Source: Treponema sp.
GTDB taxonomy: Bacteria; Spirochaetota; Spirochaetia; Treponematales; Breznakiellaceae
Length of the DNA: 58,408 nt
NCBI GenBank assembly: GCA_031276815.1
Contig: JAISMJ010000093.1
Span: forward strand, 1-58,408
Direction: 5' to 3'
This document shows, in pieces, positions 38,291 to 54,334 of this stretch. Each line of letters starts with the position of its first letter. Position 1 is the first letter of the stretch. Made by a program: the position numbers and the translations under genes. The notes under the pieces were generated by a model. The model worked only from the letters and a program-made list of their open reading frames with translations. It did not search any database and was not told where the DNA came from.

Positions 38291-38740
38291 TGTCGACTAC
38301 ACGCCGTATGAAGTCGACTACGAGTCGCGTGAAGTCGACTACGCGCAGTATGAAGTCGACTACGAATAGCGTGAAGTCGACTACGTACAGCATGAAGTCG
38401 ACTACGCACAGTATGAAGTCGACTACGAGTCGAGTGAAGTCGACTACGAATAGCATGAAGTCGACTACGCACAGTATGAAGTCGACTACTAGTCGCGTGA
38501 AGTCGACTACGTGCAGTATGAAGTCGACTACTAGTCGTATGAAGTCGACTACGCGCAGTATGAAGTCGACTACGAATCGCGTGAAGTCGACTACGTGTAG
38601 TATGAAGTCGACTACGAGTCGCGTGTAGTCGACTACGCGCAGTATGTAGTCGACTACGAGTCGCGTGAAGTCGACTACGCGCTTCATGAAGTCGAATACG
38701 TGTAGTATGTAGTCGACTACGCGCAACAGATTGTCGACGC
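38291..38740. repeat. Intergenic tandem array 3: ~21 x 21 bp
   Basis: The unit is GAAGTCGACTAC plus 9 variable nt. The core AGTCGACT (extended to GTAGTCGACTAC in some units) is palindromic. Lies ~430 nt upstream of the guaB ATG and just past the terminator of the 39-54 kb operon. Confidence 0.88.
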
Positions 38741-39139: not shown

Positions 39140-40849
39140 CTATTGTATGGTAAACGTTGATTCCGCCATGCGGCTGTTTTTGTACCATAGTTCTATGCGG
39201 TATGTTCCTCTGCGCCAATGTCCCGGCGTTGCGCCACCCCAGCCGGTAGTACGCTCCGTACCGCTGCCCGCGTTAATATAAAAGGAAGAACTAAAACTAT
39301 ACCCGTCCGGCGAAGATGTTCCGGTAGAGAGCGCGCCATTCGGATGAAAGATTTTTATATAAAGCTCATACGTTCTCGCGCTGGAAAGAAACGATTCATA
39401 CCTAATCTCCGTATACAAATAGGTTGACCGTGACGAGATAATAGCATCGCCGGGGTTATCCCCCTGATTGAATACCCGTATGCGGGTTATTGAAAAGGCG
39501 GGATATGTTGCCAAAAACCGGTTCGCCGTATTCGTAGCGTCCGCTAATTCACGTTGAGTAGTATCTAGTTGAGCGTTAGCGTTCTCCAAGTCATCGCGCA
39601 GCGTAGATACTTGAGTACGAATACCGGTTAGTTCGGTTTCAGCATCGCTTAATTGCGCGCGGACAGCGGTTAGTTCGGCTTCGGCATCGCGTAAGCGCGA
39701 CTGAAGGGCATACAATGCGCTTTCTTTTTCCGCTATCTCCGCGTATAAAAGATCGCCCTTACCATACCATTTTACCGCATACACGATACAAACAATGACG
39801 GCTGTTATAAGTGCGGTAATAAGAAGCGCGGCTATGCCTTTACTGATACGGACAGCGGCGTCATCACACGGTTGCTGAACATGCGGCTGCGAGGAGGGTA
39901 GGGCGGGAACGGGTTCTTTTTGGCGCGGCAGCCGTCCGTTTTTTTCAATCGTACACCACGGACACGCAGCCGCTCCGCCGGCATAGTAATGATTGGTACG
40001 GTTCACACAGAGCGTCAGACCGTTTAGGAGTCTTTCAAGCGCGGCATACCATGCGTCTCCTGAAGGCGTCTCTGCCGGTTCAGTACGCCCTTCAATAAAA
40101 GCCCCGCGGAATAACGTGTGTATTTCAGCCGGTAAAGAAGCGAACAGGGGCGCATACGCGGGTATATCAACGGTTATATCTGTGGGAGAAATGGAAGGAT
40201 GCGCTCCATTCATCAGCAAACGAAAAATCAGCGTCGCCAATGCCGCGTCATCCTGTTCTTTCGTACATACCGGCAGCGGTTCCCATGCTTTTTGTTCCCC
40301 CTGAAGCTCCGGCGTACTGATCGTTGCCGCGTGTGATTCACACGGGAACACGTTTCCGGTTTTGTCTGTGATATGAAAGGAATCCGCGCCGGTTACGGTA
40401 ATACGTCTGGTATCCGGATCAACGAGTATCTGTCCGGCGTGCAGGCGCCCGATAATCTGCCCTTCCTTATGCAAATCGCGAACCGCTCTCGCGGTGTTCT
40501 TTGCTATGGTAACGAAGAATGACCACGGTTTCCCCGCGCATGTATCGAAGATAGTCGATACGTTCTCTTTACCCGTTGCTTTAGGCATAACATAGCCGGC
40601 AAACGTCCACTGCGTAGGCTCGTATACCACATCAAGCGGCCATGCGTATTGTTTCATGTCAGGAAAACGCAGCGCGGTCATTGCAAGCAATTTCTGTTCT
40701 TTTTCCGCCGTCCGTGTATCCGGCTTGTATATCGCGGCTACCACGTCGCCATCTTCGACTACGGTGTAAAGGTCGCTCCCGTCTTCACTCGTAAACGGCG
40801 TATCCGCCGCCGTATAGATTTTACCTGACAGAGCGACATATATGGACAT
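39140..40849 (-). CDS. Membrane-anchored YegI-like protein-kinase-fold protein with a degenerate catalytic loop; extracytoplasmic coiled coil plus beta-rich domain
   Basis: 569 aa with VAAIYKP (VAIK-like Lys42), IIGRLHAGQILV (aligns to xxGD/HRD-L..xN-ILV with Arg at the catalytic Asp position), GADSFHI (DSF variant of DFG), CESHAATISTPELQG (TPE = APE motif) and CPWC. One TM helix (IAALLITALITAVIVCIVYAV). Then a heptad-rich LRDAEAELTAVRAQLSDAETELTGIRTQV and a ~120-aa beta-rich tail. Confidence 0.65.
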   Translation of the reverse strand: MSIYVALSGKIYTAADTPFTSEDGSDLYTVVEDGDVVAAIYKPDTRTAEKEQKLLAMTALRFPDMKQYAWPLDVVYEPTQWTFAGYVMPKATGKENVSTIFDTCAGKPWSFFVTIAKNTARAVRDLHKEGQIIGRLHAGQILVDPDTRRITVTGADSFHITDKTGNVFPCESHAATISTPELQGEQKAWEPLPVCTKEQDDAALATLIFRLLMNGAHPSISPTDITVDIPAYAPLFASLPAEIHTLFRGAFIEGRTEPAETPSGDAWYAALERLLNGLTLCVNRTNHYYAGGAAACPWCTIEKNGRLPRQKEPVPALPSSQPHVQQPCDDAAVRISKGIAALLITALITAVIVCIVYAVKWYGKGDLLYAEIAEKESALYALQSRLRDAEAELTAVRAQLSDAETELTGIRTQVSTLRDDLENANAQLDTTQRELADATNTANRFLATYPAFSITRIRVFNQGDNPGDAIISSRSTYLYTEIRYESFLSSARTYELYIKIFHPNGALSTGTSSPDGYSFSSSFYINAGSGTERTTGWGGATPGHWRRGTYRIELWYKNSRMAESTFTIQ

Positions 40850-40860
40850 ATACGTTTCCC

Positions 40861-41979
40861 TTATTCATACTGCTGTATCAGCGCTTCCAACTCGCGCTTA
40901 TGTAAGCCTGCGTTCTTATACGTCTCCAGAATCTTTGTAAGAACAAACGTATTTTTATGGAGATATTTCGCAACGGCTTGGAGAATATGGCGCATCTCTT
41001 CATATTCGCCGCTAACGATCCGCGCACATTCACCGCACATGGTCGCTATAGTTTCTTGTTTTGTCTTGTTGTTGTCTTCAAAGGATTTCAGAGCCGCTTC
41101 CATTTTTACTGAGTAGTTGCCTATGGCATCGGTGTACGCTTTTGGAAAGGATTGAATAGCGGCGCACTTAAAGGTCAGCGCATGTAAATTTGAGAGAATA
41201 GCGTCTATGTTCTTCATAAGTTCTTCATCGACCATACGGTTTTGAGCGAAAGAATCCTTAAAAGAAAGATGGATATCTTTAAGCAGCGCTTCACTCTCGC
41301 CGCAATAGCGAAGCGCTGCTGCGGAATAATCTAATTTAGAAGCGAATTGTTCAAAGCTGGTTTTAACGGTATGCGCCGCAACGCCGAGCGCATTAAACGC
41401 CGCTTCACAGCGCTTTTTTTCTGTAAGCAGGTGAGAGCACTCTTCTTTTTGGAGCGCTAGATAGGTTTTGATAGCTTCATTCACGTAATCCAGAGCGGCT
41501 GTCGTCCCATTCGCCTGTTTCTGAAAGCGTTCTTCTGTTTCGGAGATAGCGGATAACAGCGTTGCATTGATTTTTCTTATTTCGTGATCCGTGTCAATAT
41601 ACGCAAAATCGGCTTTATATTCCCATGCGGGCGAAGCGCTATCATCATATACAACAGGTGAAAAGACATGTTCCCGGATTTTTCCGGTAATACATGAAAT
41701 AATAACAAAAATTCCACTGAGAATCAGCACTGTCATACCGTTACTTTCAAGCAAGAGCGCAAGCGCGCACGAAGATACCGTTAACACAGCAAGCGGAATA
41801 TTTGCAAGATCAAAGAGTCTTGACAGGATAGGAGCGCGCGGAATTAAAAAAGTAACAATTTTTGAAAGAAGGGGCGCATGAGGCGCCGTCCGCTTTATGA
41901 TTGATAGGTAATCAAGAACTAATCCCGCAACTCCTGACAACACAACAACAATATAAGCAATAACTGCTATATATATCAT
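40861..41979 (-). CDS. Membrane protein (N-terminal TM helices) with an all-helical cytoplasmic region; operon member
   Basis: 372 aa. Hydrophobic segments lie in residues 1-110 and the rest is predicted helical. The ATG overlaps the upstream stop (ATGA at 41976-41979). Confidence 0.7.
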   Translation of the reverse strand: MIYIAVIAYIVVVLSGVAGLVLDYLSIIKRTAPHAPLLSKIVTFLIPRAPILSRLFDLANIPLAVLTVSSCALALLLESNGMTVLILSGIFVIISCITGKIREHVFSPVVYDDSASPAWEYKADFAYIDTDHEIRKINATLLSAISETEERFQKQANGTTAALDYVNEAIKTYLALQKEECSHLLTEKKRCEAAFNALGVAAHTVKTSFEQFASKLDYSAAALRYCGESEALLKDIHLSFKDSFAQNRMVDEELMKNIDAILSNLHALTFKCAAIQSFPKAYTDAIGNYSVKMEAALKSFEDNNKTKQETIATMCGECARIVSGEYEEMRHILQAVAKYLHKNTFVLTKILETYKNAGLHKRELEALIQQYE

Positions 41980-43991
41980 AATCCATCCTTATGTAACATG
42001 ACGTTCAATTCGCCCAGATTGTTGATATAACCGTTATCAGATATTTCACATGGCTTTATTATTTCAATCCTGTTTTCCCCGTCAGATTTTATTATATTTT
42101 TTGTATACAGCTCCCGTATATGTGTTACGTTATTATAATAATGCGGGTTTGGAAAGATATATTTTTTACCGCCTTTTCTGTTTGAAATCCATTTTGTTTC
42201 CGCAAAAGATTCGAGAAGGTTCTGTTTTGTTTTTATCTTAAAATCACCCACCAGATAATAAAACGTATCAAGCGGAAGTTTTGTCCCCGCCTTGGCTGCC
42301 GCCCATGCGTTAAATTCAGCAACAATAGCATCCGTACCGCCAGAATCGCCGGAAGAAGCGCGCTTCTTTTCATGAGCAGGGGCAGTTTCTATAGTATTCA
42401 AACGTCCGTCGATAGTATGTATACGATAATCAATACTTTCGATACTAGATTTAACCTCGTTTATACGTTGCTGAAGATCAAAGATTTGTACCGGCGCCTG
42501 TTCAACACGTTCCGCATCGCTTTGCAGTTTTTGCAGTTGCTCCGCCATTGCTTGAACAGATACAGCGCTGCTTTGCTCATACAGTGTAGCGAGTTGTTCA
42601 TAGGAAGATAATTTTGCATGGGCATCATTGAGTTTTTGGGTGAAATTAACATAACTCCGTATTTTATTCATAAAATTCGGAGCAAGAGTAAATTGTGTAA
42701 AATCATATACAGAATCGCACAGTCTATTCGTTGAATTCGAGGTTTCTGTGATTACCGCTTCTAGTTCCGCATTGGTTTTTCCAAGTTTTTTTAGTTCTTG
42801 GGAGAAAGAATCGTTTAGAGTATGTAAAGCTTCTATTGTATCACGCTCAAAGTCAATAGAAACAGCTTCGTTGAATGTTTCACAAATTGCAAAGAATTTA
42901 TCATAACTTGAACGTAAGTCATCAGCGTTTTTCTTGATTATAGTGTCAATAGAGGTAAAAGTACCGCTGATAGTATGTTCGAGCGAGTCCGTTATCCGTT
43001 CCAGATGGTGTAATTCAACAGAAAATGCATCGCTTTTATAGGCGGAAAGAAGCTGTTTTAGTTCCAATAAAAGGGCGGCATTTTTATTCATCGCGTTAAT
43101 GTCGACTTTTGTTTTGTCTGCAAGTTCGGTACATTTCGGCATTATAGCGTTAATATGTTCGCATATAACGCTCAAAGTACTATTCAGTTCGTTTATTTTT
43201 TTCAGAGCATCATTAAAGAAACCGGTAATGTTTTGCCATGTTATAACCTCCGTACCGCTTTGAAGCTTGATAAATTCATCTAATTTTGCCGTCATATCCG
43301 TTGTGCTTTGCAAAAGCATATCGCATCGTTTAGTATTCGTTGCTGAAAATATGTTTACAGCGGACAGTAGCCGGTTAGTGTCTTCCGATTTCAAGGCATT
43401 TAACACGGCGGGTCTCAACTCTTTTATCGTAATTAAGTCAAAGTTCGCAATTTTATCATACCAGCGCGTATATAAGGCATCGGTAAATAGCGCGACTTTG
43501 CTATCCGCGTGTCTTTTTAGCAACAGGATACATATAAAGCAAAAGGTATGTATCATAAACAAAAAAGACAACAAGCTGGTTTTCGTAGATGCCGCAATCA
43601 CTCCCGCATACATCACATACAATGAGGCTATAAACGGGATATGCATGAGAAAAAATACGTATGCTACAAATTTATCGCACTTTTCTTTATAGTTTGATAT
43701 ATATGCGTTTTGATTCACTTTCTTTCCAACTTTGGCGTCTGTACACATACGTCCTAATATTTCAATGATAAAATTGTTTTTCATGATGTTAGATTGTTTG
43801 TTTACAAAATCATTAAAATTGCTATTCATTTTAATAACGTTTTGATTTTTATCGATCACCGGCGCAAGTTTCAATCCTGAGAGATCGAGCAGTTCCTGTG
43901 TTGTTCTTGTCTTTTTAGAAAAATAAATAACCGGCAGTATATATAATAAAAGAAACCACAACGCATAGATAACAATTATTTGTTCTGACAT
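41976..43991 (-). CDS. Polytopic membrane / coiled-coil protein ending in the shared ~112-aa C-terminal domain (divergent copy)
   Basis: 671 aa. TM segments near residues 6-25 and 105-160, then a long helical region. The C-terminus reads EFNAWAA..GTKLP..FYYL....K.....L....ETKWISN..GGKKYIFPNP......I.ELY.......RIEIIKPCEIS.NGYINNLGEL. AAGGAG SD. Confidence 0.75.
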   Translation of the reverse strand: MSEQIIVIYALWFLLLYILPVIYFSKKTRTTQELLDLSGLKLAPVIDKNQNVIKMNSNFNDFVNKQSNIMKNNFIIEILGRMCTDAKVGKKVNQNAYISNYKEKCDKFVAYVFFLMHIPFIASLYVMYAGVIAASTKTSLLSFLFMIHTFCFICILLLKRHADSKVALFTDALYTRWYDKIANFDLITIKELRPAVLNALKSEDTNRLLSAVNIFSATNTKRCDMLLQSTTDMTAKLDEFIKLQSGTEVITWQNITGFFNDALKKINELNSTLSVICEHINAIMPKCTELADKTKVDINAMNKNAALLLELKQLLSAYKSDAFSVELHHLERITDSLEHTISGTFTSIDTIIKKNADDLRSSYDKFFAICETFNEAVSIDFERDTIEALHTLNDSFSQELKKLGKTNAELEAVITETSNSTNRLCDSVYDFTQFTLAPNFMNKIRSYVNFTQKLNDAHAKLSSYEQLATLYEQSSAVSVQAMAEQLQKLQSDAERVEQAPVQIFDLQQRINEVKSSIESIDYRIHTIDGRLNTIETAPAHEKKRASSGDSGGTDAIVAEFNAWAAAKAGTKLPLDTFYYLVGDFKIKTKQNLLESFAETKWISNRKGGKKYIFPNPHYYNNVTHIRELYTKNIIKSDGENRIEIIKPCEISDNGYINNLGELNVMLHKDGL

Positions 43992-44009
43992 AAATACTCC
44001 TTGTGTTTT

Positions 44010-45425
44010 TCACAATAATGTTAATTCTCCCGGATAATTGATAAAACCGCTGCCGGACATCTCGCAGGGTTCCGTTATTCTAATTTTATTCTGCCCTTTA
44101 GACCGTAACTTTGTTAGATCCATGTTATAAAGCTCCTTTATATCGGTCATTTGGTCAAAGGAATTTGGATTTGGAAAAAGATATTTTTTGCTACCGTTCT
44201 TATTTGAAATCCACTTAGTCTCCATTGCGGACGGTGTAAGAGGCTGCTCTCTTCTTACCCGCATATCATGTTCTAAATAATAAAATTCGTTGGGCAGTTT
44301 AGTTCCCGGGTTGGCTGCCCACGCATTAAAAGCGGAAATAGTAGTATCAGTTTTATTAACGGTGCTCATACTATTCGGCGGCTCACTGATTTTCTTGGGA
44401 AAAACCGGTTCCGCCATGTTTGCATTGTCTTCAAGGTTTTTCACACGGGTATTAATACTAGTTAGATGGCGTGTTGTTTTATCGGCAGCTTCGCTAATAC
44501 GTTGAATTTGTGCTGTTAATGTTCTAATTTCTAACGTGATGTTCTCTTGGTTTTGATTTGGGCGAGCAAACTCTGATTTTCTCATTGATTCCTCAATACT
44601 GTTGAGACGCGATTCAAGATTCAGAAGGCTGTTGTTAATAGTAGTATTGATTATAGATATATCGTTTATCAATTCTTTATTACTATTTTGTATATCATAT
44701 TCTACATGTTTTAGACCTACCTCAATAGTTTTGATACGTGACTCAATATTCGGAATCCATTTGTTAATAGTAGTAACCGTATGTCTTGTTTCTTTATTAC
44801 TATTCTGAATATCATATTCTACATCTTTTAGACGTTCCTCAATAGTTTTAATACATGCGTCAAGATTCACAAGTCTATTGTTAATAATATTATTGAGCGT
44901 AGATATGGTATTTTTTATATTGGAAATATTACTTTCTATCTTTTCCAATCGTTCCTCAATAGTATTACTATTGAGTGTAGCAGATACGGCATTTCTTGAT
45001 ATTTCTCTATTATTTTGGATATCATCTTCTATCTTCTTCAGGCGTTCCTCAAGTTCTTCATATTTTTTCAACTGTTTTACAGGCAGTATAGTTCTATGAG
45101 CATCAATGCTAGGCATTTCTTGCCCTAAAAGCATTGCCAGATATGATACGGTTTCAGCGGCTTTTTCCCATGTTACGCTGTTTTTATCCTGAAAATTTTG
45201 TATCAGTCCCGAGAATTCGAGAGTCTGTATTGTTTTTTCATGTTCCGATGCTTCCCTCACTCTATCGAAATATCCTGCATTAACGGCTTTAAGTAATAAA
45301 TTAACTTTTTCTTCGTATTCGCCCCCAAAGGCGCCCAACTGTTCTTTTATGCTGTCTTCAAAATCAGATTTTGATTTATCCTTTGATAGGGTTCTTATTT
45401 TAATCAGAATGTCCTGAAATGTCAT
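44010..45425 (-). CDS. Soluble coiled-coil repeat protein ending in the shared C-terminal domain
   Basis: 471 aa with no TM helix. Internal ~37-40-aa repeats (LK.VEYDIQNSNKE twice, LKKIEDDIQNNRE once). C-terminus AFNAWAANPGTKLPNEFYYLEHDMRVRREQ...ETKWISNKNGSKKYLFPNP...ELY...KIRITEPCEMSGSGFINYPGELTLL. Confidence 0.75.
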   Translation of the reverse strand: MTFQDILIKIRTLSKDKSKSDFEDSIKEQLGAFGGEYEEKVNLLLKAVNAGYFDRVREASEHEKTIQTLEFSGLIQNFQDKNSVTWEKAAETVSYLAMLLGQEMPSIDAHRTILPVKQLKKYEELEERLKKIEDDIQNNREISRNAVSATLNSNTIEERLEKIESNISNIKNTISTLNNIINNRLVNLDACIKTIEERLKDVEYDIQNSNKETRHTVTTINKWIPNIESRIKTIEVGLKHVEYDIQNSNKELINDISIINTTINNSLLNLESRLNSIEESMRKSEFARPNQNQENITLEIRTLTAQIQRISEAADKTTRHLTSINTRVKNLEDNANMAEPVFPKKISEPPNSMSTVNKTDTTISAFNAWAANPGTKLPNEFYYLEHDMRVRREQPLTPSAMETKWISNKNGSKKYLFPNPNSFDQMTDIKELYNMDLTKLRSKGQNKIRITEPCEMSGSGFINYPGELTLL

Positions 45426-45464
45426 AAAACGCCTTTAAATTACTAAAAACAAGCGTATTCGCTC

Positions 45465-46937
45465 CTAGAGTAATGTTAATTCTCCATGGTAGTTGATATA
45501 GCCGCTGCCGGACATTTCGCAGGGCTTTGTTATTGTGATTCTGTTTTGTCCTCTGGGTCTTAACTTTGTTAGATCCATGATATAAAGCTCACTTATATCG
45601 GTCATTTGATCAAAGAAATTAGGATTTGGGAAAAGATATTTCTTACCGGTCTTACTGGCGTCTTTATTTGAAATCCATCTAGTCTCTGTTGCAGACGGTG
45701 TAAGAGATTGCTCTCTTCTTACCCGCATATCATGTTCTAAATAATAGAAATTATCCGGCAGCCTGCTTATCGGATTACTTGCCCAAATATTAAAGGCAGA
45801 AACCGGATCGCTGGTAAAACCCGGCGTTTTTTCTGTGAGAGGCGAGAAGCTTTCCGGCTGTCTTTTATTATTTTTCAAATCTACGTTAATATCTCTAATA
45901 CAGGTATCAATATCCCAAACGCTCCTCTCTACTCCATCAAATCTTTCTTCAAGTTTTTCTTCAAGCTTTCGAATTTGATTCGGCGCTGTTTCAATATACG
46001 TCAGCGTTTTACCTTGATCTTTGTACATGATGAGCAAGGTATCCATTTTACTAGCTATCCCTTCTAATGCTTCTTGTGCGGCTTGGAGCCGTTTATTGTC
46101 GGCTGTAGATTTTATAAGAGATAGTATAGCTATGACAAGAGAGGCGGAAGCGATACTCCCTACCGCTATGAGCATGATCAGCAGAGCAAGAAATCTCTTT
46201 TCAGTATCCGCTACTTTACGTATATCAGCAACTACGGTATTAATTTTCTCAACGTTGGCTGTTACTGCCGTCCAATCTTTGTTTGTCTGGGCATTGCTGG
46301 CAGCAATATAGGACTCTGTACCAATTTTATACAACTCTTTATATTTTTTCTGAATTTTGCCTTCCACACCGTTAAGTTGTTTCTTAGCAGCCGCTAAAGC
46401 TGAAGAAGCAGCTTCAGCCATCTCTGTATCTGTCAGCGCACTGTCTATTGCCGTCATTGCGGCATCTAAAGCATTGCTCATTTCCGCAACAGTTTTTGCC
46501 GCTCCAATCTTTTCACGTCCTTCTTCCTTTATAGCAATAAGGTTCTTCCACTGATTTCCGGTGAAATCTTTCGCCGCTTTCTGTTTTCCAAAATAGTCAT
46601 GTAACGTATCTTGCGCCTCTTTTTTTCTTACATCAAGAATTGTTCCATAAATAGCATCTATCTCATTTTCTGCATTTGAGAGAGCTTTTTGTATCGCTTC
46701 ACTATCTTTTGCCTTGTCAATCGCATTCTTACCCTTTTCCCTTATGCCGGTAAGTTTTTTTTTATCAGATTCAGTAAAATCCTTTTCTGCGCCTCCTCCG
46801 ATATACGATTCCAACTCGGCTATTGCAGCTTCCTGTTTCTTGACTATATCATCAGTCCCTTCGGTTTCAGCGCCTGCCATCCATAAACATCCAAAAACAA
46901 GTACTAGAGCGAGGCTTGTAATTTTAGTCTTTTTCAT
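45465..46937 (-). CDS. Bitopic membrane protein: signal/lipobox, extracytoplasmic helical repeats, one TM helix, cytoplasmic coiled coil, shared C-terminal domain
   Basis: 490 aa. MKKTKITSLALVLVFGC (lipobox-like). A..I..A.T..E...AL..A...ID helical repeats. TM helix FLALLIMLIAVGSIASASLVIAILSLI. C-terminus AFNIWASNPISRLPDNFYYLEHDMRVRREQ...ETRWISNK...KKYLFPNP...ELY...RITITKPCEMSGSGYINYHGELTLL. Confidence 0.75.
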   Translation of the reverse strand: MKKTKITSLALVLVFGCLWMAGAETEGTDDIVKKQEAAIAELESYIGGGAEKDFTESDKKKLTGIREKGKNAIDKAKDSEAIQKALSNAENEIDAIYGTILDVRKKEAQDTLHDYFGKQKAAKDFTGNQWKNLIAIKEEGREKIGAAKTVAEMSNALDAAMTAIDSALTDTEMAEAASSALAAAKKQLNGVEGKIQKKYKELYKIGTESYIAASNAQTNKDWTAVTANVEKINTVVADIRKVADTEKRFLALLIMLIAVGSIASASLVIAILSLIKSTADNKRLQAAQEALEGIASKMDTLLIMYKDQGKTLTYIETAPNQIRKLEEKLEERFDGVERSVWDIDTCIRDINVDLKNNKRQPESFSPLTEKTPGFTSDPVSAFNIWASNPISRLPDNFYYLEHDMRVRREQSLTPSATETRWISNKDASKTGKKYLFPNPNFFDQMTDISELYIMDLTKLRPRGQNRITITKPCEMSGSGYINYHGELTLL

Positions 46938-46982
46938 ATAGGTTCCCCTTAAAAAATAGTATCATATTTTATGGAACGGGTA

Positions 46983-49900
46983 TTATGATTTATATCCCGA
47001 ATTACTGAATTCATCAAGAAACACTTTAAGCATAACAATAAACGGAGGATCAAAACGATTTTCAGTTTGCAATACTCTTTCAATCTCTGTTCTTATTTGA
47101 TTCCAGAGCGTTTGTCTCTCTCTTTCAAACCATCCTCTTTGTATAATAGGCATATCTCCACGCGTTTTACTCGCAATTCGATTAAAGAAGTCCAAGAATT
47201 CACCGAATTCCGAAAGTTCCCTGTCTATCGTTATGCTTAATATATTTGGATTTATAAAAAATCCGTCATTATACACATCAACAAAGACGTCTTTTTTATA
47301 GCTATGCGCTACATCCCCCTGCGTTACGGTAATATTGCACCCGATAAATACTTCGGGATCGGCGAGTTTAATGGTGTTTTTTTGATTGCCGTTAGTATCC
47401 ACATCGCATATCATACCTATCGCCGTCTCGGTTTTTGCCGAGTCCGGAGAAAATTGATCAAGGAATCTGATTTGTATGCCATTGGGATATGTGGTGCTTA
47501 TCGTTTTCTCCGCTATAAGGTTTTGAGCTTCAGCATAAATAGTTGAACAGTATGCGCGTATCCAGTCCGTTAGTTTTGAACCTTTTCCAGACAGCCCAAG
47601 AACAATTTGCGTAATATCATTATCAATTTTCTTGTCAGGATCGTCCGAATTCAACAAAGCCGCAATAGCATTTGCTAAATAATATATTAACCCCGAATAC
47701 GCGATAAATACGCTGTGCTTGAAATTTTTATAAGCTTGTTTATCATCGCCTTCAAGACTATCAAGCCTATTCTTAAAAAGACTATAATATTCAAACAGAA
47801 CGGTCTCGATAAAATATTTAATTTTATCTCTTGAATATTCTGTATTTCTTCCTCCATATTCCAGCATGGTATGAATTCCATCTTCAATTCTATCGGTACG
47901 CACCACATCCATTACACTCTTTATTTCTAACAGTTTTTCAAGCGGAGCAACAAACATATCACGGGATGCAAAACGGATAGAGGTTTGGAAGACGTGTTTT
48001 GTTTTGATCCAGAGTGAAATATCGCTTGTATTTCCCCCTATATCAACGCAAAGAAAAATCGTCTGTCTTGAGTTTCTATTTCGGAAGTAAAAAGCCGCCG
48101 CAATACTTTCTGTAATAAGATTTCTCTCGTTGAATACAATATCAATACCGGTATCACTGCGGAGTCCTGTAATAATGGCGTTAAGACTGGTACCGAAATC
48201 TGTTTTTGTCCCCTGACTAAACGCAGTTGGATACGAGAAAAACCAGTTTATTTTCCGCACGCCTTTTTCCGCCGCATTATAAACTATGTGGGTCAATAAC
48301 TGATTGAGATACTTGCCGGCATACGAGAGATTGGTTTCCCATTTGATATTGGTAAGAAGCCTATCGCGTCTCCCTTCGGTACTGTTTAATATTCTAAAAT
48401 TTTCAAAGTTATGCCAGAAAATACGCCCCGTTTCAAAAATAGTAGGCGACGCGGAATCCCGTGTCGTATCCATTTTCTCATAGGTAGTTGCATAGCCGTT
48501 CTGCCTTAAATAGTGCGGGTCTATGAAATAGTTCTCTACATTTCTTTTATCACCCGTATTGCTGAGAATCACCATATCATTTTTTATCTCACGTTTTTGA
48601 GGTTCACTGCTTCCGTCCACCCAATGATATTCCGTGTTTAATTGTATAAAAGCAGGGAGAGACCCGCTATTGTCGGTGGTATAAAATGCCGTCGATGTTG
48701 TTGTGCCAAAATCAAACCCTATGTTCCATACTATACTTCCCGGCTGAACTTTTTTAGGCTCAGCAAGAAAAACAGCCCCCATATAGATAGAACTATGTGC
48801 GCTTATTTTTTGTTTTAACTTTAATGCAACGGGAAGCGCTCTGTATCGCCTGTAATATATATCATTAACTACGCTGCTGACAGTGGAAAGTTTTTGTTGT
48901 CCTAACAGGTAATTATTAGTTGTAAAAAAAGGTTCGATTTCCAATACTGGAATTCCTCTGAAGTTAGGCTCTACGCAAAAGAAATTATAGCGCTGCCATG
49001 TATTTTCGCCGTTTCTGTCAAGTATTTCCGCATACGGCCACGCCGCCCAGAACGGCACATAGTTTTTATCAAAAATGAAGCATATTCCTGTTCCCTCACT
49101 GCGGTCATTGTCGTCAGAATCTGCGCCGCTTTTAATCTTCTTAATGGTATATTCTTTTGTTACAGAATGTTTTCCCATGGCGTCGCTCAATGCGAGTCCC
49201 AGCGTAATGGTTACTTTTTCATTGTCAGCGCGGATAGAAAGCATATCATTAATCTGCTCCATGGTATACCATTCAAGAAGTTTTTCATGTATGGGCCATA
49301 TAACCTCATAATCATCAATAGAACGATTCGGCAGCGTGTGAAAAACAGCCTCGCTACCTTTATTAATCATTACCATCGAGTCACCAAGCAGGTCGTTTTC
49401 ATACATAAGCGTAACGCCATCTATTGTTTTGCCTGAATACTCCTGTATATTTGCCGCATGTATCTGATTATACAACATAGTATCGGTAATAAAGATAGTT
49501 GACGCCTGCTGGCTTGAAGAACTGATCCCGCAAATAGTAACGCCGATGAGGGCTACTCTTTGTCCACGCGTACCGGCTAACAGGAAGGGCAGCTCTACCG
49601 TGCGGTTGCTGGTAATGCTTACTTTGTCAAACAGGTCATACACGCTTTCTACTTCGCCGCTGCTCGTTAGGGAGATATCATGATTCGGCGTTACTTTGCC
49701 AATATCTGCGATAAACTTTTCCACCAACTTTTGAAGAGCTTTAATGATACTCCGCTGATTTCGCGTGGCTTCTTTTGTAATACAAGCTTTTAATTTATCC
49801 AAAAACAATTTCAGCGCATACTTCGCATCCCGGTTCATAGATTGGCTTTGGTTTTTAAAGTAATTATCGGGACTTAAAAATTTTCCGCTTTCGTCAATTA

Positions 49901-52001
49901 TTGTCGGAGCCATCGTATACAGCTTTGTCTTGATCGCAGCCGAATACGAATAGGCAGGACAAACAATCGTATTATGGGCAAGAAAAGCAATGACTTCATC
50001 TTTTTCTCCATCGGACAATGAAACACAGCACGCATTAATCCAGTTTGGATTATCAAAAATATAACTATTAGGAATAAGCGTTTCCTTCATGGTATTTAAG
50101 AATTCTCCGTCGCCCACGGTTCCCAGCCGCAATACTCGTAGCTGCAACCCTGCACGTTCATATAGATTGAGTTTTCTAAGCGCAAGAAGGGTAAGCAGTC
50201 CGCACCATTGATTGTACGCGGTCTTGTTTAATGACGCGAACTTTGGTTCGACTAGCGTCAGCTCATTCACAATAAATATTGACCATGGAGAAGGAATCGA
50301 CACATCGCTTGCAACGAATTTATCCCCCTGAACATTAGGAAGCCCATCAGCAATATTTATAAGCAGCGTAGGCTCGCTTTTTGACCACAGCTTATTCTGA
50401 TCGGCATCGGGCTTGATAAACGTTACGCCGTTTTCTTTTGACAAATAAGGGACAATGACAAAGTCGTCCCTCGTTGTTTTAGCTTTTCCGCCGAAAAGTC
50501 TCAGTTCCTGTTTGGTAACTAAGTCTCCTAGCGTAACAAATAAAGAGGGAAAACGCTTGCCGCTGTTGCCTACAGGCAACGGTTTTTTACCGGCTATATC
50601 GCTATAAATTTTAGCGGAAAGTTTTTGATTTGTATCGTTATATACCAACTCCTTGAAATTATCAATTTCACCATTTTCAACCGGCATATTATCAAAAAGT
50701 GTAGGATACCCCGCATTAAAGAGCTTGACTCTGGCGTCAGGCGTCCATTTCATCCTACCGGTGTTTTGGTCAATGTCATCTAAATTCTTTTTATGGAGAT
50801 CGTACATCCACTTTACGAAAAGCTCTAAATAACCGCGGAGATTTTCATATATGAAATTCTGATTCTCATCTTTATCGGTCTGTATGCCCCCGTCATAGTT
50901 TTTTTCCCACCTGCCGGCAGCCGTCCCATTTTTTAGTTCCCCATAGAGTATTTTATTGTAAAATACGGCGATCTTCATAAGTTTCTGCATCTTCAAGGGC
51001 AAATCCGAATCAATATCCTGAATCATCTTCCATGTATAATAGTATTCGCTGCCGCTCGCTTCTCTTTGCGCTGTGATGATTTTACTGTCTTGCCGGTTAT
51101 TGTTTTCTTTTACAAAATCAATGATGGACATCGCCGCAAAAAGTTCGATGGGATGCGTTTTATTGCGCTGATTATCAGAACCCCGCGAGGCAACTTCGTT
51201 TGAAAAGTTTATCTCAGGCTCGCCTATAACATATAACGCATCCGTCTTTTTATACTGTTCCTGAACATAGTAATAATACAGCGCGGTCTTTGCTTTTACC
51301 TGAAAATTATTTGAATTGGGTTGCAGTCTTCCTTCTTCCGCTATTTCTCCAATAGCCTTGAAGTAAGGCGTCAATATAATAGCGGCGAATTTAAAATCAG
51401 CCTCTCTTTTGTGCGCTTTAAGATCGTCAAGCACGACAGGTATTGCGGATGCGCCTGTTCCTCCAAATATCGATCCCATGACAACGACAAAATCGTTTGC
51501 GTTTATTTCCGTTTTAAATTGCCGCCAGATTTCATCATGGCTCAAGATATTCTCAACAACCAGCGTTCCTATGGACGTATGACCATAAAAGCCTTGATTA
51601 AATTCAGCGTCTATTTCATCATCCGTATAAAGGAAGCGAATAAACGTATCATCATCGCTATCTCTGTATTGCGGTATCTTAAAAGCCTCGCTTATACTTT
51701 TCTTTTCATCCTTGTAAAGACTTATATTGGTCGACGGACTTATTGATTCAACGCTTATGAGACCAAGTTCATTACCCGCCGCACTGAGCGCATTATAGAA
51801 TCGTTGATACGAACTTAATACGACGTTTGTATGTTTCAGATTCCCATTTGAAACATCCGCATCAATGGTCATAATCCGTATGACGTCAATGTGGCTTGAG
51901 CCTAAATTTCCCTTAAAAGCGCCGCTTGCGGCGAGATGAATAACGGCTGTTACGAGTTTATGACCCGTTCCGCCTATCCCAATAATATGAAGTTTTGACA
52001 T
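46983..52001 (-). CDS. 1672-aa protein: N-terminal tubulin/FtsZ-like GTPase motifs, ~650-aa unassigned middle region, C-terminal actin/Hsp70 (ASKHA)-like ATPase motifs
   Basis: N-terminal motifs: IIGIGGTGHK (aa 6-15; GIGGTG at nt 51963-51980), NQGFYGHTSIG (aa 135-145) and GSIFGGTGASA (aa 176-186, nt 51444-51476; compare the tubulin signature GGGTGSG). C-terminal motifs: IGFDFGTTTS (D1097-S1103, nt 48693-48713, phosphate-1 like), VDIGGNTSD (D1320-D1327, nt 48021-48044, phosphate-2 like) and IVLGLSGKGS (G1469, nt 47580-47597, adenosine-motif like). AAGGAG SD. Confidence 0.7.
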   Translation of the reverse strand: MSKLHIIGIGGTGHKLVTAVIHLAASGAFKGNLGSSHIDVIRIMTIDADVSNGNLKHTNVVLSSYQRFYNALSAAGNELGLISVESISPSTNISLYKDEKKSISEAFKIPQYRDSDDDTFIRFLYTDDEIDAEFNQGFYGHTSIGTLVVENILSHDEIWRQFKTEINANDFVVVMGSIFGGTGASAIPVVLDDLKAHKREADFKFAAIILTPYFKAIGEIAEEGRLQPNSNNFQVKAKTALYYYYVQEQYKKTDALYVIGEPEINFSNEVASRGSDNQRNKTHPIELFAAMSIIDFVKENNNRQDSKIITAQREASGSEYYYTWKMIQDIDSDLPLKMQKLMKIAVFYNKILYGELKNGTAAGRWEKNYDGGIQTDKDENQNFIYENLRGYLELFVKWMYDLHKKNLDDIDQNTGRMKWTPDARVKLFNAGYPTLFDNMPVENGEIDNFKELVYNDTNQKLSAKIYSDIAGKKPLPVGNSGKRFPSLFVTLGDLVTKQELRLFGGKAKTTRDDFVIVPYLSKENGVTFIKPDADQNKLWSKSEPTLLINIADGLPNVQGDKFVASDVSIPSPWSIFIVNELTLVEPKFASLNKTAYNQWCGLLTLLALRKLNLYERAGLQLRVLRLGTVGDGEFLNTMKETLIPNSYIFDNPNWINACCVSLSDGEKDEVIAFLAHNTIVCPAYSYSAAIKTKLYTMAPTIIDESGKFLSPDNYFKNQSQSMNRDAKYALKLFLDKLKACITKEATRNQRSIIKALQKLVEKFIADIGKVTPNHDISLTSSGEVESVYDLFDKVSITSNRTVELPFLLAGTRGQRVALIGVTICGISSSSQQASTIFITDTMLYNQIHAANIQEYSGKTIDGVTLMYENDLLGDSMVMINKGSEAVFHTLPNRSIDDYEVIWPIHEKLLEWYTMEQINDMLSIRADNEKVTITLGLALSDAMGKHSVTKEYTIKKIKSGADSDDNDRSEGTGICFIFDKNYVPFWAAWPYAEILDRNGENTWQRYNFFCVEPNFRGIPVLEIEPFFTTNNYLLGQQKLSTVSSVVNDIYYRRYRALPVALKLKQKISAHSSIYMGAVFLAEPKKVQPGSIVWNIGFDFGTTTSTAFYTTDNSGSLPAFIQLNTEYHWVDGSSEPQKREIKNDMVILSNTGDKRNVENYFIDPHYLRQNGYATTYEKMDTTRDSASPTIFETGRIFWHNFENFRILNSTEGRRDRLLTNIKWETNLSYAGKYLNQLLTHIVYNAAEKGVRKINWFFSYPTAFSQGTKTDFGTSLNAIITGLRSDTGIDIVFNERNLITESIAAAFYFRNRNSRQTIFLCVDIGGNTSDISLWIKTKHVFQTSIRFASRDMFVAPLEKLLEIKSVMDVVRTDRIEDGIHTMLEYGGRNTEYSRDKIKYFIETVLFEYYSLFKNRLDSLEGDDKQAYKNFKHSVFIAYSGLIYYLANAIAALLNSDDPDKKIDNDITQIVLGLSGKGSKLTDWIRAYCSTIYAEAQNLIAEKTISTTYPNGIQIRFLDQFSPDSAKTETAIGMICDVDTNGNQKNTIKLADPEVFIGCNITVTQGDVAHSYKKDVFVDVYNDGFFINPNILSITIDRELSEFGEFLDFFNRIASKTRGDMPIIQRGWFERERQTLWNQIRTEIERVLQTENRFDPPFIVMLKVFLDEFSNSGYKS

Positions 52002-52030
52002 AGTTCTCTCCTTATTAGTACCCTACGCTC

Positions 52031-52104: not shown

Positions 52105-52587
52105 TCACTTCCGGTAGGTAAACCAGAATGCCCGTGCATACGCGGGCGTTACAAAAAGCGCGCCTGTTATGAAAGATACCGGAAAAGCAACCGCGTGAAG
52201 TGCGATAAGTACTCCAAACGCCGCAGCATCAAGACCGAATCCAATCGTATATACAATGGGCAGAATGACCATAAACAAAAGAGTTATAAAAAAACCCATA
52301 TAGAACTGCATTTTTTTTGAAGCGGCATTCGCTCCCCCTAACGCGGCGGGAATAATTATTACACAGAGCGCATGTATTATAATCGCGATGATGACGCTTA
52401 GAATCATACAATCCCGTCCGTTTTCCTCCCATATATATACGCCGAAAGATTTTTCTCCTATAACAATAAATAGGGCGTTAAAATTTTTCGGATCAATAGT
52501 AATAATGTACAGTATAAATGCCCCAATCGGCAACAAAATCAACCATGGCAATGCTTTAAGTGAATCTTTCACATAAGTTCCAAACAT
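52105..52587 (-). CDS. Small polytopic membrane protein (about 4 TM helices); operon member
   Basis: 160 aa from the ATG at 52587, which is preceded by GGAGGAG. The track extension to 52683 lacks an SD and adds a non-hydrophobic leader. Confidence 0.65.
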   Translation of the reverse strand: MFGTYVKDSLKALPWLILLPIGAFILYIITIDPKNFNALFIVIGEKSFGVYIWEENGRDCMILSVIIAIIIHALCVIIIPAALGGANAASKKMQFYMGFFITLLFMVILPIVYTIGFGLDAAAFGVLIALHAVAFPVSFITGALFVTPAYARAFWFTYRK

Positions 52588-52696
52588 AATCTTTCTCCTC
52601 CAAAATAATATGCGAGGGGTTCCGCAATAAACCCCTCGTGTAAGAACGTACAGCGCTCTACCGTCCGTATACGCTTCCGTCAAACGCCGGTTCTCA

Positions 52697-54334
52697 TTAG
52701 TTTTTTCTCACAAGGTACAAAACGCCGGAATACACCTCGTTATTGGCGTTTCGTATCTTGTTAAACGCTTCTTTTATATAGCCATAAATGGTAGTAAGAT
52801 GCAATACTTTGATCTGTCCGCCCGCGGCAACGCTTGCTTCAAGTTCTTCAATATCAGAAGCACTTCTATCGTAAACCCATGCGGGGATTTTGCCGTGGGA
52901 CCTCACCGTATACCCTATCTTATAGTACCCTTGTATGAGATTTTTGTTTTTAGTTTCAATGAGAAGGTATAGATAGTCAGTACCGACTTCGGCGTCTACG
53001 CTGGCTTCCAGTTCATCAGGCGCGACGTCGACCGCCGCCGTTACGATAGTTCCAACGGGTCTCGCGTACGGTTCAAACGCCGATGGTTCGCCGCGTGTAT
53101 TTTTTCCCCCGTCAAAGTATTCTACGCGCACATCCACGGAGTATTCAAATTCCGTTATATCCCCTTTTTCAACGGGCAGCGCGGCTATGTACCTCGAACC
53201 GCTATCACCGATTGTAAGATAGGCTTCCGCATCAGAGCGCTGCAGAACATACTTGACGCTCCGCTCTTCATCTTCACCGCTTTTAGGCGGCGTATCGCGT
53301 TCCGCCCAACTAAGTAAGGTTGTCTTGCGAAGATTAACTTTTTTATATTTATAATCGCCGGAATTAAACACGGTTTCTCTTCTTGTGAATTCTTGACCAG
53401 ACGGCAGCAGGAGATATGGCTTACCCTGATACAACGCATCGTTTATAAAGAGAGAGAGTTCAAAATCAGTCCCTTTCATCATGCCTTTAATTTCGAAATC
53501 TCTCGCCAGCCCTTCGCTGTACGCTTGTACGCTGCCGGTATCTCCGACTATAAAAATAAAAAACGTCGAAGACCCGTTCTTTACCGGAATGTTCTTTTGA
53601 TTATTACTCCCGGACACATCATTGATATTTCCATTAAATGATGACGTTACGGCAAAAATCGCGCCTGACATGCCCCGTTCAAAGGCGTCTTGAAACAACT
53701 GATGAAAATACAGGTGCGCTTTATTATTCTCGTAGAGATCGGTAATAACGATATTCAGACAGTTTTGCGTTATTTCCGGCGCGGTATAGACCGAGTCTCT
53801 GATATAGTCAGCCACCGACCCAAACGGTTGACCTTCTCCATCAGAGTTTTTCACGGAATATACCACCTGCCTGTTGGTACCGGGTCCGTAACTGTACTTG
53901 TTATAACCGTAGAACTGGGGCTTTCTCAGTTCGTTTAATACTACCGGGGAGAACGGTATCTCGCATATCACCAATCCGCCGAATTCGTAATACAGCGATT
54001 CCGCCTGAGAAGCCCATAGTTGTCCGCCAACCGTCCATACGCTCTCTATCGCCTTTGTATAGGTGGATTCTTCAACGTGTCCGGGAACAACCATACGCCC
54101 GATCGCATCTACTTTGAACTGATCATTCTGGGTAAACCCCTGCATCGACTCTGTTCTATCAAAAAAGTAGCGCACCTGCTTTACCGGTGAAGGCGGTCCC
54201 GGGGGGACGTCTTCCGCCGGACGAGGAGTTTCCGCAACATAGCAAGGACCGAGCCTGTTACATGCCGCAACCATACACGCCGCAACAAGACACGCGCCTA
54301 TTCGGAATATATATGCTCTTTTTGCCATTTTCAT
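52697..54334 (-). CDS. Lipoprotein with a tentative vWA-like (MIDAS-containing) domain; first gene of the operon
   Basis: 545 aa. Signal plus lipobox (LVAACMVAAC). VRYFFDRTESM (D59-x-T-x-S63, nt 54146-54160) resembles the MIDAS DxSxS on a beta strand. CLNIVITDLYEN (D199) resembles the distal MIDAS Asp strand. Confidence 0.45.
   Translation of the reverse strand: MKMAKRAYIFRIGACLVAACMVAACNRLGPCYVAETPRPAEDVPPGPPSPVKQVRYFFDRTESMQGFTQNDQFKVDAIGRMVVPGHVEESTYTKAIESVWTVGGQLWASQAESLYYEFGGLVICEIPFSPVVLNELRKPQFYGYNKYSYGPGTNRQVVYSVKNSDGEGQPFGSVADYIRDSVYTAPEITQNCLNIVITDLYENNKAHLYFHQLFQDAFERGMSGAIFAVTSSFNGNINDVSGSNNQKNIPVKNGSSTFFIFIVGDTGSVQAYSEGLARDFEIKGMMKGTDFELSLFINDALYQGKPYLLLPSGQEFTRRETVFNSGDYKYKKVNLRKTTLLSWAERDTPPKSGEDEERSVKYVLQRSDAEAYLTIGDSGSRYIAALPVEKGDITEFEYSVDVRVEYFDGGKNTRGEPSAFEPYARPVGTIVTAAVDVAPDELEASVDAEVGTDYLYLLIETKNKNLIQGYYKIGYTVRSHGKIPAWVYDRSASDIEELEASVAAGGQIKVLHLTTIYGYIKEAFNKIRNANNEVYSGVLYLVRKN

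What the first reader, a model, noticed from the sequence alone, without database searches (positions are those of the whole stretch)
41979..46937. Three consecutive proteins with unrelated N-terminal architectures share one unrecognised ~112-aa C-terminal domain
**Seen in the sequence**
- The last 112-118 residues of the 490-aa, 471-aa and 671-aa proteins align without difficulty. Their coordinates are nt 45468-45809, 44013-44348 and 41979-42332.
- The shared pattern is F-N-x-W-A ... (T/S)-(K/R)-L-P ... F-Y-Y-L ... E-T-(K/R)-W-I-S-N ... K-K-Y-(L/I)-F-P-N-P ... E-L-Y ... (K/E)-P-C-E-(M/I)-S ... G-(Y/F)-I-N ... G-E-L.
- In each protein a coiled-coil segment of the type I-(D/E)-x-R-L-N-x-I-E precedes the domain.
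- The N-terminal parts differ completely: an exported helical-repeat ectodomain with one TM helix, a soluble repeat coiled coil, and a multi-TM protein.

**Inference**
The domain is cytoplasmic in all three topologies. It is a good candidate for a common docking module, for example to the giant NTPase, that links different sensing or anchoring modules to one core. I cannot assign it to a known family.
Basis: seen in the sequence. Interest (0 to 1): 0.7.

Follow-up and report, generated by a model that had tools for sequence, protein, structure and literature searches.

The report
New docking-type domain on coiled-coil stalks
Three neighbouring proteins really do end in the same ~113-residue domain, which matches no known family or fold and marks the coiled-coil "stalk" subunits of an undescribed gene cassette built around a giant tubulin-like/actin-like protein in gut spirochaetes.

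Summary
The 490-, 471- and 671-aa proteins share a C-terminal ~113-aa domain (HMM E 1e-42 to 1e-54), and the window holds exactly three copies.

The domain has no hit in Pfam, NCBIfam, PADLOC, PHROGs or PDB sequences. A confident AlphaFold model (pLDDT 94) matches nothing in PDB or BFVD.

An exhaustive HMM search finds a compact family of 193 clusters at 50% identity. All named members come from spirochaete-type gut MAGs.

In every related locus checked, the two genes directly after a ~1,650-aa giant gene both end in this domain:
- D1 has a signal peptide, a variable ectodomain, one TM helix, a stalk of constant length and then the head.
- D2 is a soluble coiled coil plus the head.

The window's third copy is the conserved multi-TM subunit "E" fused to a D2-like module. 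That fusion recurs in a second, divergent lineage.

The giant protein has a divergent tubulin/FtsZ-like N-domain and an actin/Hsp70-like (ASKHA) C-domain.

D1 and D2 heads carry no class-specific residues and often resemble each other most within one operon.

My best reading is a cytoplasmic docking or assembly head that couples different anchors to one core. Direct binding is untested.

The parts
45468..45812 (-). Domain copy 1: C-terminal head of D1 (490-aa protein, residues 376-490)
   Evidence: HMM E 1.4e-50. Aligned with the other copies.
44013..44351 (-). Domain copy 2: C-terminal head of D2 (471-aa protein, residues 359-471)
   Evidence: HMM E 5.4e-54. AlphaFold model has pLDDT 94.2 and pTM 0.87. 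No fold match in PDB or BFVD.
41997..42335 (-). Domain copy 3: head at the end of the E-fusion (671-aa protein, residues 553-665, then a 6-residue tail)
   Evidence: HMM E 1e-41. The same fused architecture occurs in P0136, which is 31% identical over its full length.
45465..46937 (-). D1: signal peptide or lipobox, about 225-aa helical ectodomain, TM helix (residues 253-271, nt 46125-46181), cytoplasmic coiled-coil stalk, head
   Evidence: The same architecture occurs in the first gene after the giant gene in all related loci. The distance from TM end to C-terminus is 193-222 aa in nearly all of 47 representatives.
44010..45425 (-). D2: soluble repeat coiled coil plus head
   Evidence: No hydrophobic segment. 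Internal 117-nt repeat. The second gene after the giant gene is soluble plus head in all related loci.
41976..43991 (-). E-fusion: conserved 3-TM plus helical subunit E (residues 1-495) fused to a D2-like coiled coil plus head (residues 500-671)
   Evidence: Residues 7-495 match the 420-501-aa third gene of other loci, which lacks the head. Residues 500-671 match whole D2 proteins.
46983..52001 (-). Giant 1,672-aa cytoplasmic protein: divergent tubulin/FtsZ-like N-domain and ASKHA (actin/Hsp70-like) C-domain
   Evidence: Pfam Tubulin E 2.7e-4. AlphaFold model of residues 1-470 has pLDDT 83. Its Foldseek top 50 hits are all tubulin, CetZ or FtsZ, with 273 hits at E<=1e-3. hhalign of the C-part gives MreB 82% and DnaK 77% probability. 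Invariant DFGTT, DIGG..D and G..GKGS motifs.
52697..54334 (-). A: conserved lipoprotein, first gene of the cassette
   Evidence: Invariant lipobox Cys. Conserved in all loci. No family hit.
52105..52683 (-). B: conserved small 3-TM protein
40861..41979 (-). F: conserved 3-TM plus helical protein. Its start overlaps the stop of the E-fusion by 4 nt.
39140..40849 (-). G: 569-aa protein with one TM helix. Only its C-terminal ~150 aa recurs after F in some loci, so it is a peripheral or optional member.
   Evidence: The N-terminal part matches phrog_37888 at E 3e-25. No Pfam kinase hit.

Best explanation
The shared ~113-aa module is a new, lineage-restricted globular alpha+beta domain with one N-terminal helix and about six strands. 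It forms the cytoplasmic "head" of the coiled-coil stalk subunits of a conserved, undescribed envelope-spanning cassette.

**The cassette**
- Gene order is A (lipoprotein), B (3 TM), giant tubulin-like/ASKHA protein, D1, D2, E (3 TM), F (3 TM).
- D1 places a variable periplasmic module outside the membrane. It holds the head about 100 coiled-coil residues below the membrane.
- D2 is the soluble version of the stalk.
- In this window a third head is fused to subunit E.

**Proposed mechanism**
- The heads are interchangeable protein-protein docking or assembly modules.
- They bring membrane-anchored and soluble stalks onto one common cytoplasmic partner. The adjacent giant NTPase is the most likely partner.
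- Events at the envelope would thereby be coupled to assembly or nucleotide hydrolysis by that protein.

**Status of each step**
- Shown: homology, family size, lack of known relatives, architectures, synteny, and equivalence of D1 and D2 heads.
- Inferred: cytoplasmic location, docking function, identity of the partner, and the purpose of the cassette.
For: **The domain is real and has no known relatives**
- Three copies, with no others in the window.
- No known family or fold despite a confident model.
- The family is compact: 193 representatives, 189 of them at E<=1e-10, with no tail of distant relatives.

**Synteny with the giant gene**
- In 15 of 15 informative loci the giant gene is directly upstream.
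- In 16 of 16 informative loci there are two tandem head-bearing genes.
- In the most divergent giant homologue (26% identity), the two downstream genes carry a barely recognisable version of the head (FPNP, IIEPC and GKIE motifs).
  - hmmsearch --max gives E 7e-5 and 9e-6 in a two-sequence search.
  - hhalign gives 75% and 58% probability.
  - Head and giant protein have therefore diverged together.

**D1 and D2 heads behave as one module**
- They have no class-specific columns and do not form separate clades.
- In 7 of 16 loci the within-operon D1-D2 identity exceeds every cross-operon D1-D2 identity. In the window it is 76%, against a maximum of 56%.
- This is expected if both heads track the same partner or each other.

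**Architectures**
- D1-type proteins carry variable ectodomains: Flg_new in 15 of 136, plus Big_2, fn3 and TPR.
- The distance from TM end to C-terminus is nearly constant at 193-222 aa.
- Fusion of a head to subunit E occurs in two lineages that are only 31% identical. This is a Rosetta-stone argument that E and the heads act in one complex.

**No sign of catalysis or nucleic-acid binding**
- Conserved residues are mainly aromatic, hydrophobic, Pro, Gly and Asn.
- Net charge is about +1.
Against: - No interaction was tested.
- Co-occurrence and co-divergence follow from shared descent of an operon. They do not identify the partner.
- At least one member sits among housekeeping genes, without the cassette on its 15.8-kb contig, and has the domain at its N-terminus (P0018, L007). 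P0009 also has an N-terminal domain, but its 1.5-kb contig gives no context.
- A nearly invariant Cys and several invariant Asn residues could mark a ligand site.
- The tubulin-like assignment of the giant protein rests on low TM-scores of 0.25-0.39.
Confidence: 0.5

Rival explanations
1. The head is a homotypic oligomerisation module. D1, D2 and the E-fusion heads bind one another, capping paired coiled coils and clustering the stalks. They do not dock on the giant protein. The giant protein would then be engaged by other parts, such as the stalks, E or F.
For: - There are always at least two heads per operon.
- No class-specific residues distinguish D1 from D2 heads.
- Within-operon similarity of the two heads, or concerted evolution, is seen in 7 of 16 loci. 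This is typical of symmetric interfaces.
Against: - The coiled coils could provide pairing by themselves.
- Members with an N-terminal head exist, one of them in a non-cassette neighbourhood (P0018, L007).
Confidence: 0.25
2. The head is a small-molecule or nucleotide-sensing domain, or an enzymatic or effector domain. It would be delivered or regulated by the stalks and would not be a docking module.
For: - Several polar positions are invariant or nearly so: N9, N50, N61, Y75, N88 and C96.
- The possibly new fold leaves function open.
- The cassette looks like a mobile accessory island. It has low GC, variable neighbours and a resolvase next to the divergent version.
Against: - There is no acid/base or metal-binding constellation.
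- E97, next to the conserved Cys, is variable.
- Most conserved residues are hydrophobic, Pro or Gly, which fits a structural role.
- Two or three identical effector heads per operon, on both soluble and anchored stalks, would be unusual.
Confidence: 0.1
3. The shared C-terminus is only the retained core of tandem paralogues. It would be a structural end-cap of a coiled coil with no specific partner.
For: - D1 and D2 are adjacent paralogues.
- The domain almost always sits at the extreme C-terminus.
Against: - Conservation of the head is far higher than that of the stalks. There are 12 invariant positions across 22 sequences, while the stalks are unalignable.
- The head is kept when the N-terminal part is swapped for entirely different modules, and when it is fused to E.
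- The head is kept in the divergent system.
Confidence: 0.1

Closest known systems
FtsZ membrane tethers and bundlers (ZipA C-terminal FtsZ-binding domain, EzrA, SepF, ZapA/B)
   Same: - A bitopic membrane protein, or a soluble coiled-coil protein, ends in a small globular module facing a tubulin-family protein encoded nearby.
- The module is about the same size as the ZipA binding domain and likewise mixes alpha and beta elements.
- This comparison rests on general knowledge of these proteins.
   Different: - There is no sequence or fold similarity. PDB Foldseek gives best E 1.5 and TM<=0.26.
- D1 has a signal peptide plus a large ectodomain, unlike ZipA.
- The partner is a 1,672-aa tubulin-like/ASKHA fusion, not FtsZ.
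- Binding is untested.
J-domain logic of Hsp70 co-chaperones
   Same: One small conserved domain is attached to many different targeting modules. All of them would address one ATPase of the ASKHA/Hsp70 type. This is an analogy only.
   Different: - There is no HPD motif and no helical J fold.
- No Pfam DnaJ hit.
- The ASKHA part of the giant protein is only distantly Hsp70/MreB-like, at 77-82% hhalign probability.
FtsZl1 operons (Makarova & Koonin 2010, PMC2875224)
   Same: - A long protein has a highly divergent N-terminal FtsZ/tubulin-like domain in which only the T1-T4 region aligns well.
- It is encoded in a multigene membrane-associated operon that the authors predicted to remodel membranes.
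   Different: - FtsZl1 proteins are about 1,000 aa, with a coiled coil and an alpha-helical C-domain.
- Their operons carry vWA, a distinct GTPase and OmpA-family genes.
- Here the protein is about 1,650 aa with an ASKHA C-domain. No vWA, GTPase or OmpA is detected.
- The head domain is not described in that paper.
GTPase-centric conflict systems with tubulin and HSP70 components (Kaur, Burroughs, Iyer, Aravind 2020, PMC7159879)
   Same: - Tubulin-family and HSP70-family modules are combined with coiled coils and membrane or extracellular components in island-like operons.
- Variable surface-type domains are a shared feature.
   Different: - Those systems are defined by GAP1-type TRAFAC GTPases and FNIII-repeat proteins, with tubulin and HSP70 as separate genes.
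- None of these defining parts is detected here.
- Here tubulin-like and ASKHA parts are fused in one protein.
- PADLOC finds no defence family.

Membership tests
Any curated protein family (Pfam-A 2025, NCBIfam r20, PADLOC 2.0, PHROGs v4) | Profile match over the C-terminal ~113 aa | tested here: not met
   No hit covers the domain. All hits are coiled-coil noise in the N-terminal parts. None of 136 family representatives has a Pfam hit on the head.
Any solved structure (PDB) or predicted viral structure (BFVD) | Sequence or fold similarity to the head | tested here: not met
   PDB sequence profile gives best E 0.45. Foldseek with a pLDDT-94 model gives best E 1.5 and TM<=0.26 in PDB, and E 2.0 in BFVD. 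AlphaFold DB and HHpred were not available.
ZipA-type FtsZ-binding domain | Split beta-alpha-beta fold that binds the FtsZ C-terminal peptide | tested here: not met
   No ZipA chain appears among the 60 Foldseek matches. Peptide binding cannot be tested here.
FtsZl1 system (Makarova & Koonin 2010) | FtsZ-like N-domain plus coiled coil plus alpha-helical C-domain, with neighbouring vWA, GTPase and OmpA genes | tested here: not met
   The tubulin-like N-domain is present. The C-part is ASKHA-like. No vWA, GTPase or OmpA hits occur in the cassette.
GAP1-N2 GTPase-centric conflict systems (Kaur et al. 2020) | GAP1-type TRAFAC GTPase and an FNIII-repeat protein as core components | tested here: not met
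   No GTPase or fn3 hit occurs in any of the eight window proteins. One fn3 is found among 136 D-family representatives elsewhere.
Tubulin/FtsZ superfamily (for the giant neighbour, not the head) | Rossmann-type GTPase domain with T1 (GGxG) and T4 (GGGTGSG-like) loops | tested here: met
   Invariant GGTGHK (residues 10-15) and GS.FGG.GAS (176-185). Pfam Tubulin E 2.7e-4, below the gathering score. Foldseek top 50 hits are all tubulin, CetZ or FtsZ at probability 1.0, but TM is only 0.25-0.39. Polymerisation and GTPase activity cannot be tested here.
ASKHA (actin/Hsp70/sugar-kinase) superfamily (for the giant neighbour) | Phosphate-1 (DxGxT), phosphate-2 (DxGGGT) and adenosine motifs | tested here: inconclusive
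   Invariant DFGTT (1097-1101), DIGG..D (1320-1327) and G..GKGS (1469-1475). hhalign gives MreB 82% and DnaK 77% probability. The PDB profile gives DnaK E 0.007.

The most novel reading that the evidence does not exclude
The head is the defining docking domain of a new class of membrane tethers. They would couple variable periplasmic or surface receptor modules to a hybrid tubulin-like/actin-like giant NTPase. If so, the cassette is a previously unknown bacterial cytoskeleton-type or envelope-surveillance machine, exchanged horizontally among gut symbionts, and the head has a new fold.
Probability: 0.35. Interest if true: 0.85.

Novelty: categorically new. Interest (0 to 1): 0.66.

Why it matters
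**Significance**
- The domain is the most conserved and most easily searched marker of an undescribed seven-gene cassette.
- The central protein of that cassette joins a tubulin/FtsZ-like domain and an actin/Hsp70-like domain in one 1,650-aa chain.
- If the head docks stalks onto that protein, the cassette would be a new way of wiring envelope receptors to a nucleotide-driven cytoplasmic assembly.
- It would also add a new fold to the small set of known tethers of tubulin-family proteins.

**Practical use**
- The HMM built here gives a clean handle for finding and classifying the system. It returns 193 clusters and no false tail.
- The natural E-head fusion and the equivalence of D1 and D2 heads give direct, testable predictions for interaction studies.

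**Limits**
- The family is rare and so far seen only in uncultured gut spirochaete-type MAGs.
- The function is inferred, not shown.

Tried and rejected
**Known domain or fold: rejected**
- No hits in Pfam, NCBIfam, PADLOC or PHROGs.
- No hits in PDB by sequence.
- No Foldseek hits in PDB or BFVD.

**AlphaFold test of head-head association: not possible**

**Phage or plasmid origin: no support**
- No megablast hit in plasmids.
- No relative in IMG/VR.
- No PHROG hit for the core genes.

**Known defence system: not detected**
- PADLOC returns only coiled-coil noise.

**Subunit A as a vWA protein: left as a lead**
- Conserved D-x-T-x-S-M and T-D-L motifs look MIDAS-like.
- Neither Pfam on 11 members nor a PDB profile supports vWA.

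**Subunit E: no known family**
- Only generic helical-bundle hits.

**Sigma-54 promoter upstream of the cassette: not found**
- A sigma-54 activator gene lies next door, but there is no convincing -24/-12 element. Matches equal the chance expectation.

**First locus scan failed**
- The first scan with the 22-sequence alignment had no conserved stretch to search with. It was repeated with a 7-sequence alignment.
- That scan only finds members containing KKYLFPNP, so locus counts are lower bounds.

**Literature**
- Searches found no description of this operon or domain.
Full report
**1. The observation**

The minus strand between 39.1 and 54.3 kb carries a tight operon:

| Gene | Length | Coordinates |
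|---|---|---|
| A | 545 aa | 52697-54334 |
| B | 192 aa | 52105-52683 |
| giant | 1,672 aa | 46983-52001 |
| D1 | 490 aa | 45465-46937 |
| D2 | 471 aa | 44010-45425 |
| E-fusion | 671 aa | 41976-43991 |
| F | 372 aa | 40861-41979 |
| G | 569 aa | 39140-40849 |

- The last ~113 residues of D1, D2 and the 671-aa protein align with 48 invariant columns. Identity to the D1 copy is 72% (D2) and 44% (671-aa protein).
- A family HMM scores them at E 1e-42 to 1e-54 and finds no further copy in the window.
- DNA identity is 79% between D1 and D2, and about 66% between either and the third copy. These are old paralogues.
  - D1 has a signal peptide with a lipobox-like VFGC, then an ectodomain and one TM helix.
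  - D2 is soluble and contains a 117-nt internal repeat.
  - The 671-aa protein has three TM helices.
- The exact motif I-(D/E)-x-R-L-N-x-I-E occurs only in the 671-aa protein. Relaxed versions occur in D2 and none in D1.

**2. No known relative**

- Pfam, NCBIfam, PADLOC and PHROGs give only coiled-coil noise upstream of the domain.
- PDB sequence profiles give nothing better than E 0.45.
- An AlphaFold model from a 22-sequence alignment (A2) is very confident, with pLDDT 94.2 and pTM 0.87. It has one N-terminal helix and about six strands.
- Foldseek finds no match. The best result is E 1.5 and TM <= 0.26 in PDB, and E 2.0 in BFVD.
- AlphaFold DB and HHpred were not available. "New fold" is therefore provisional.

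**3. The family**

- A word-indexed search found 20 short proteins.
- The exhaustive HMM search of 1.84 billion representatives found 193 proteins. Of these, 189 score E <= 1e-10 and 150 score E <= 1e-30. Lengths are 128-671 aa and the domain is nearly always at the extreme C-terminus.
- There is no tail of distant relatives, so the family is compact.
- Named members come from Treponemataceae, Termitinemataceae, Spirochaetaceae and Spirochaetia MAGs. A few are binned as Bacteroidales, Tannerella or Syntrophomonadaceae.
- Only 4 of 185,579 species genomes contain the KKYLFPNP form of the domain.
- None was found in IMG/VR or in plasmids.

**4. Context**

- Every related locus has the same gene order: A, B, giant, D1, D2, E, F.
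- In 15 of 15 loci whose upstream region is on the contig, the giant gene is directly upstream.
- In 16 of 16 loci where both positions are present, both following genes end in the domain.
- D1 always has a signal peptide, an ectodomain of variable length, one TM helix, a stalk and the head. D2 is always soluble.
- Among 136 representatives, 78 are soluble, 53 are of the D1 type and 2 have three TM helices.
- The distance from the end of the TM helix to the C-terminus is 193-222 aa in nearly all 47 clear D1 proteins. The total length of those same proteins ranges from 305 to 548 aa.
- D1-type ectodomains include Flg_new repeats (15 of 136), Big_2, fn3, MBG and TPR.

**5. The third copy**

- Residues 7-495 of the 671-aa protein match subunit E of other loci (420-501 aa), which has no head there.
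- Residues 500-671 match entire D2 proteins.
- The window therefore encodes E fused to a D2-like module, in addition to D1 and D2.
- P0136 (634 aa) has the same fused architecture at 31% identity. The fusion is maintained in a second lineage.

**6. The giant neighbour**

- Its family has 57 clusters, all 1,600-1,760 aa and all annotated as hypothetical.
- Invariant GGTGHK and GS.FGG.GAS motifs correspond to the tubulin T1 and T4 loops.
- Pfam Tubulin scores E 2.7e-4.
- An AlphaFold model of residues 1-470 has pLDDT 83 and pTM 0.88.
- Its 50 best PDB matches are all tubulin, CetZ or FtsZ, with 273 hits at E <= 1e-3. TM-scores are only 0.25-0.39.
- The C-terminal third has invariant DFGTT, DIGG..D and G..GKGS motifs.
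- That part matches MreB and the DnaK nucleotide-binding domain at 82% and 77% hhalign probability, and DnaK at E 0.007 by PDB profile.
- The protein has no TM helix.

**7. How the heads evolve**

- D1 and D2 heads show no class-specific column and do not form separate clades.
- In 7 of 16 loci the within-operon D1-D2 identity exceeds all 30 cross-operon D1-D2 identities. In the window it is 76% against a maximum of 56%.
- The most divergent giant homologue, P0213 (26% identity), sits next to a resolvase gene.
  - It is followed by 432-aa and 200-aa genes whose C-termini keep only the FPNP, IIEPC and GKIE motifs.
  - hmmsearch --max gives E 7e-5 and 9e-6 in a two-sequence search, and hhalign gives 75% and 58% probability.
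  - Head and giant protein have therefore diverged together.
- One exception is P0018 (L007). Its head is N-terminal and sits among housekeeping genes.

**8. Interpretation**

- The heads are interchangeable, non-catalytic-looking modules. Conserved residues are mostly aromatic, hydrophobic, Pro, Gly and Asn, and net charge is about +1.
- They are held at a fixed distance below the membrane or on a soluble stalk. They are always at least two per operon and always next to the giant NTPase.
- The best-supported mechanism is a cytoplasmic docking or assembly head. It would gather anchored and soluble stalks on one partner, most probably the giant protein (confidence 0.5).
- A homotypic head-head association is the main rival (0.25).
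- A ligand-binding or effector role (0.1) and a passive end-cap (0.1) are less likely.

**9. What the cassette is for**

This remains open, and two readings are compatible with the data.
- Island-like features suggest an accessory, horizontally moving system, possibly for conflict or surface interaction:
  - GC of 0.36-0.45 against 0.50-0.57 in the flanks
  - different neighbours in each genome
  - presence in MAGs of other phyla
  - variable ectodomains
- The tubulin-like/ASKHA core suggests a cytoskeleton-type or chaperone-type engine.

**10. Comparison with known systems**

- The nearest functional analogues are FtsZ tethers (ZipA, EzrA, SepF) and the J-domain logic of Hsp70 co-chaperones. 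Neither shares sequence or fold with the head.
- The nearest described systems are FtsZl1 operons (PMC2875224) and tubulin/HSP70-containing GTPase-centric conflict systems (PMC7159879).
- Their defining vWA, GTPase, OmpA and FNIII components are absent here.
- No paper describing this operon or domain was found.

**11. Verdict**

Family novelty, cytoplasmic placement and co-occurrence all hold, but docking itself is untested.
- The domain is a new family with no detectable relatives, in a new cassette.
- It is of good interest. That interest is limited by the domain's rarity, the uncultured hosts and the lack of direct functional evidence.

Noticed in passing
window 46983-52001 (-): The giant protein combines a divergent tubulin/FtsZ-like N-domain with an ASKHA (actin/Hsp70-like) C-domain in one 1,672-aa chain. 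Its family has 57 clusters of 1,600-1,760 aa, all annotated as hypothetical. I found no description of such a fusion.
   Followed up: partly
window 52697-54334 (-): Subunit A is a lipoprotein with an invariant lipobox Cys. It has nearly invariant F-D-x-T-x-S-M and T-D-L-Y-E motifs that resemble a vWA MIDAS site. Pfam and a PDB profile give no vWA support.
   Followed up: partly
window 38292-38725: A tandem DNA repeat of 42 nt (21-nt sub-period) occurs in about 10 copies at 85% match, between gene G and the IMPDH gene. The 294-aa and 125-aa ORFs across it (VVDFTRLVVDFIL... and KSTTSRV...) are probably artefacts of the repeat.
   Followed up: partly
window ~41000-54000: The cassette is a low-GC stretch (0.36-0.45) inside a contig of 0.50-0.57 GC. 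Its neighbours differ in every related locus, which suggests horizontal acquisition.
   Followed up: partly
window 54392-54438 (-): Three direct copies of TTTGCATAAAAGC, the third degenerate (TTGCGTAAAAG), lie about 60-100 nt upstream of the start of gene A. They may be an operator. No sigma-54 -24/-12 element was found, although a sigma-54 activator gene (54589-55965) lies directly upstream.
   Followed up: partly
Its N-terminal 26-219 matches PHROG 37888 (unknown function, E 3e-25). Only its C-terminal ~150 aa recurs after gene F in some related loci.
   Followed up: partly
window 44673-44967 (-): D2 contains an internal 117-nt (39-aa) repeat in about 2.5 copies, so its coiled coil grew by internal duplication.
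   Followed up: no
L022 1-19399: The most divergent version of the cassette (giant protein 26% identical) lies next to a resolvase gene. An 813-aa membrane protein with weak MORN repeats takes the place of E/F. Its two post-giant genes keep only a vestigial form of the head.
   Followed up: partly
L007 3795-4382: A 195-aa protein has the domain at its N-terminus. It sits between an alanine dehydrogenase-type gene and a CYTH-domain gene, with no cassette on the 15.8-kb contig. P0009 has the same reversed architecture.
   Followed up: no
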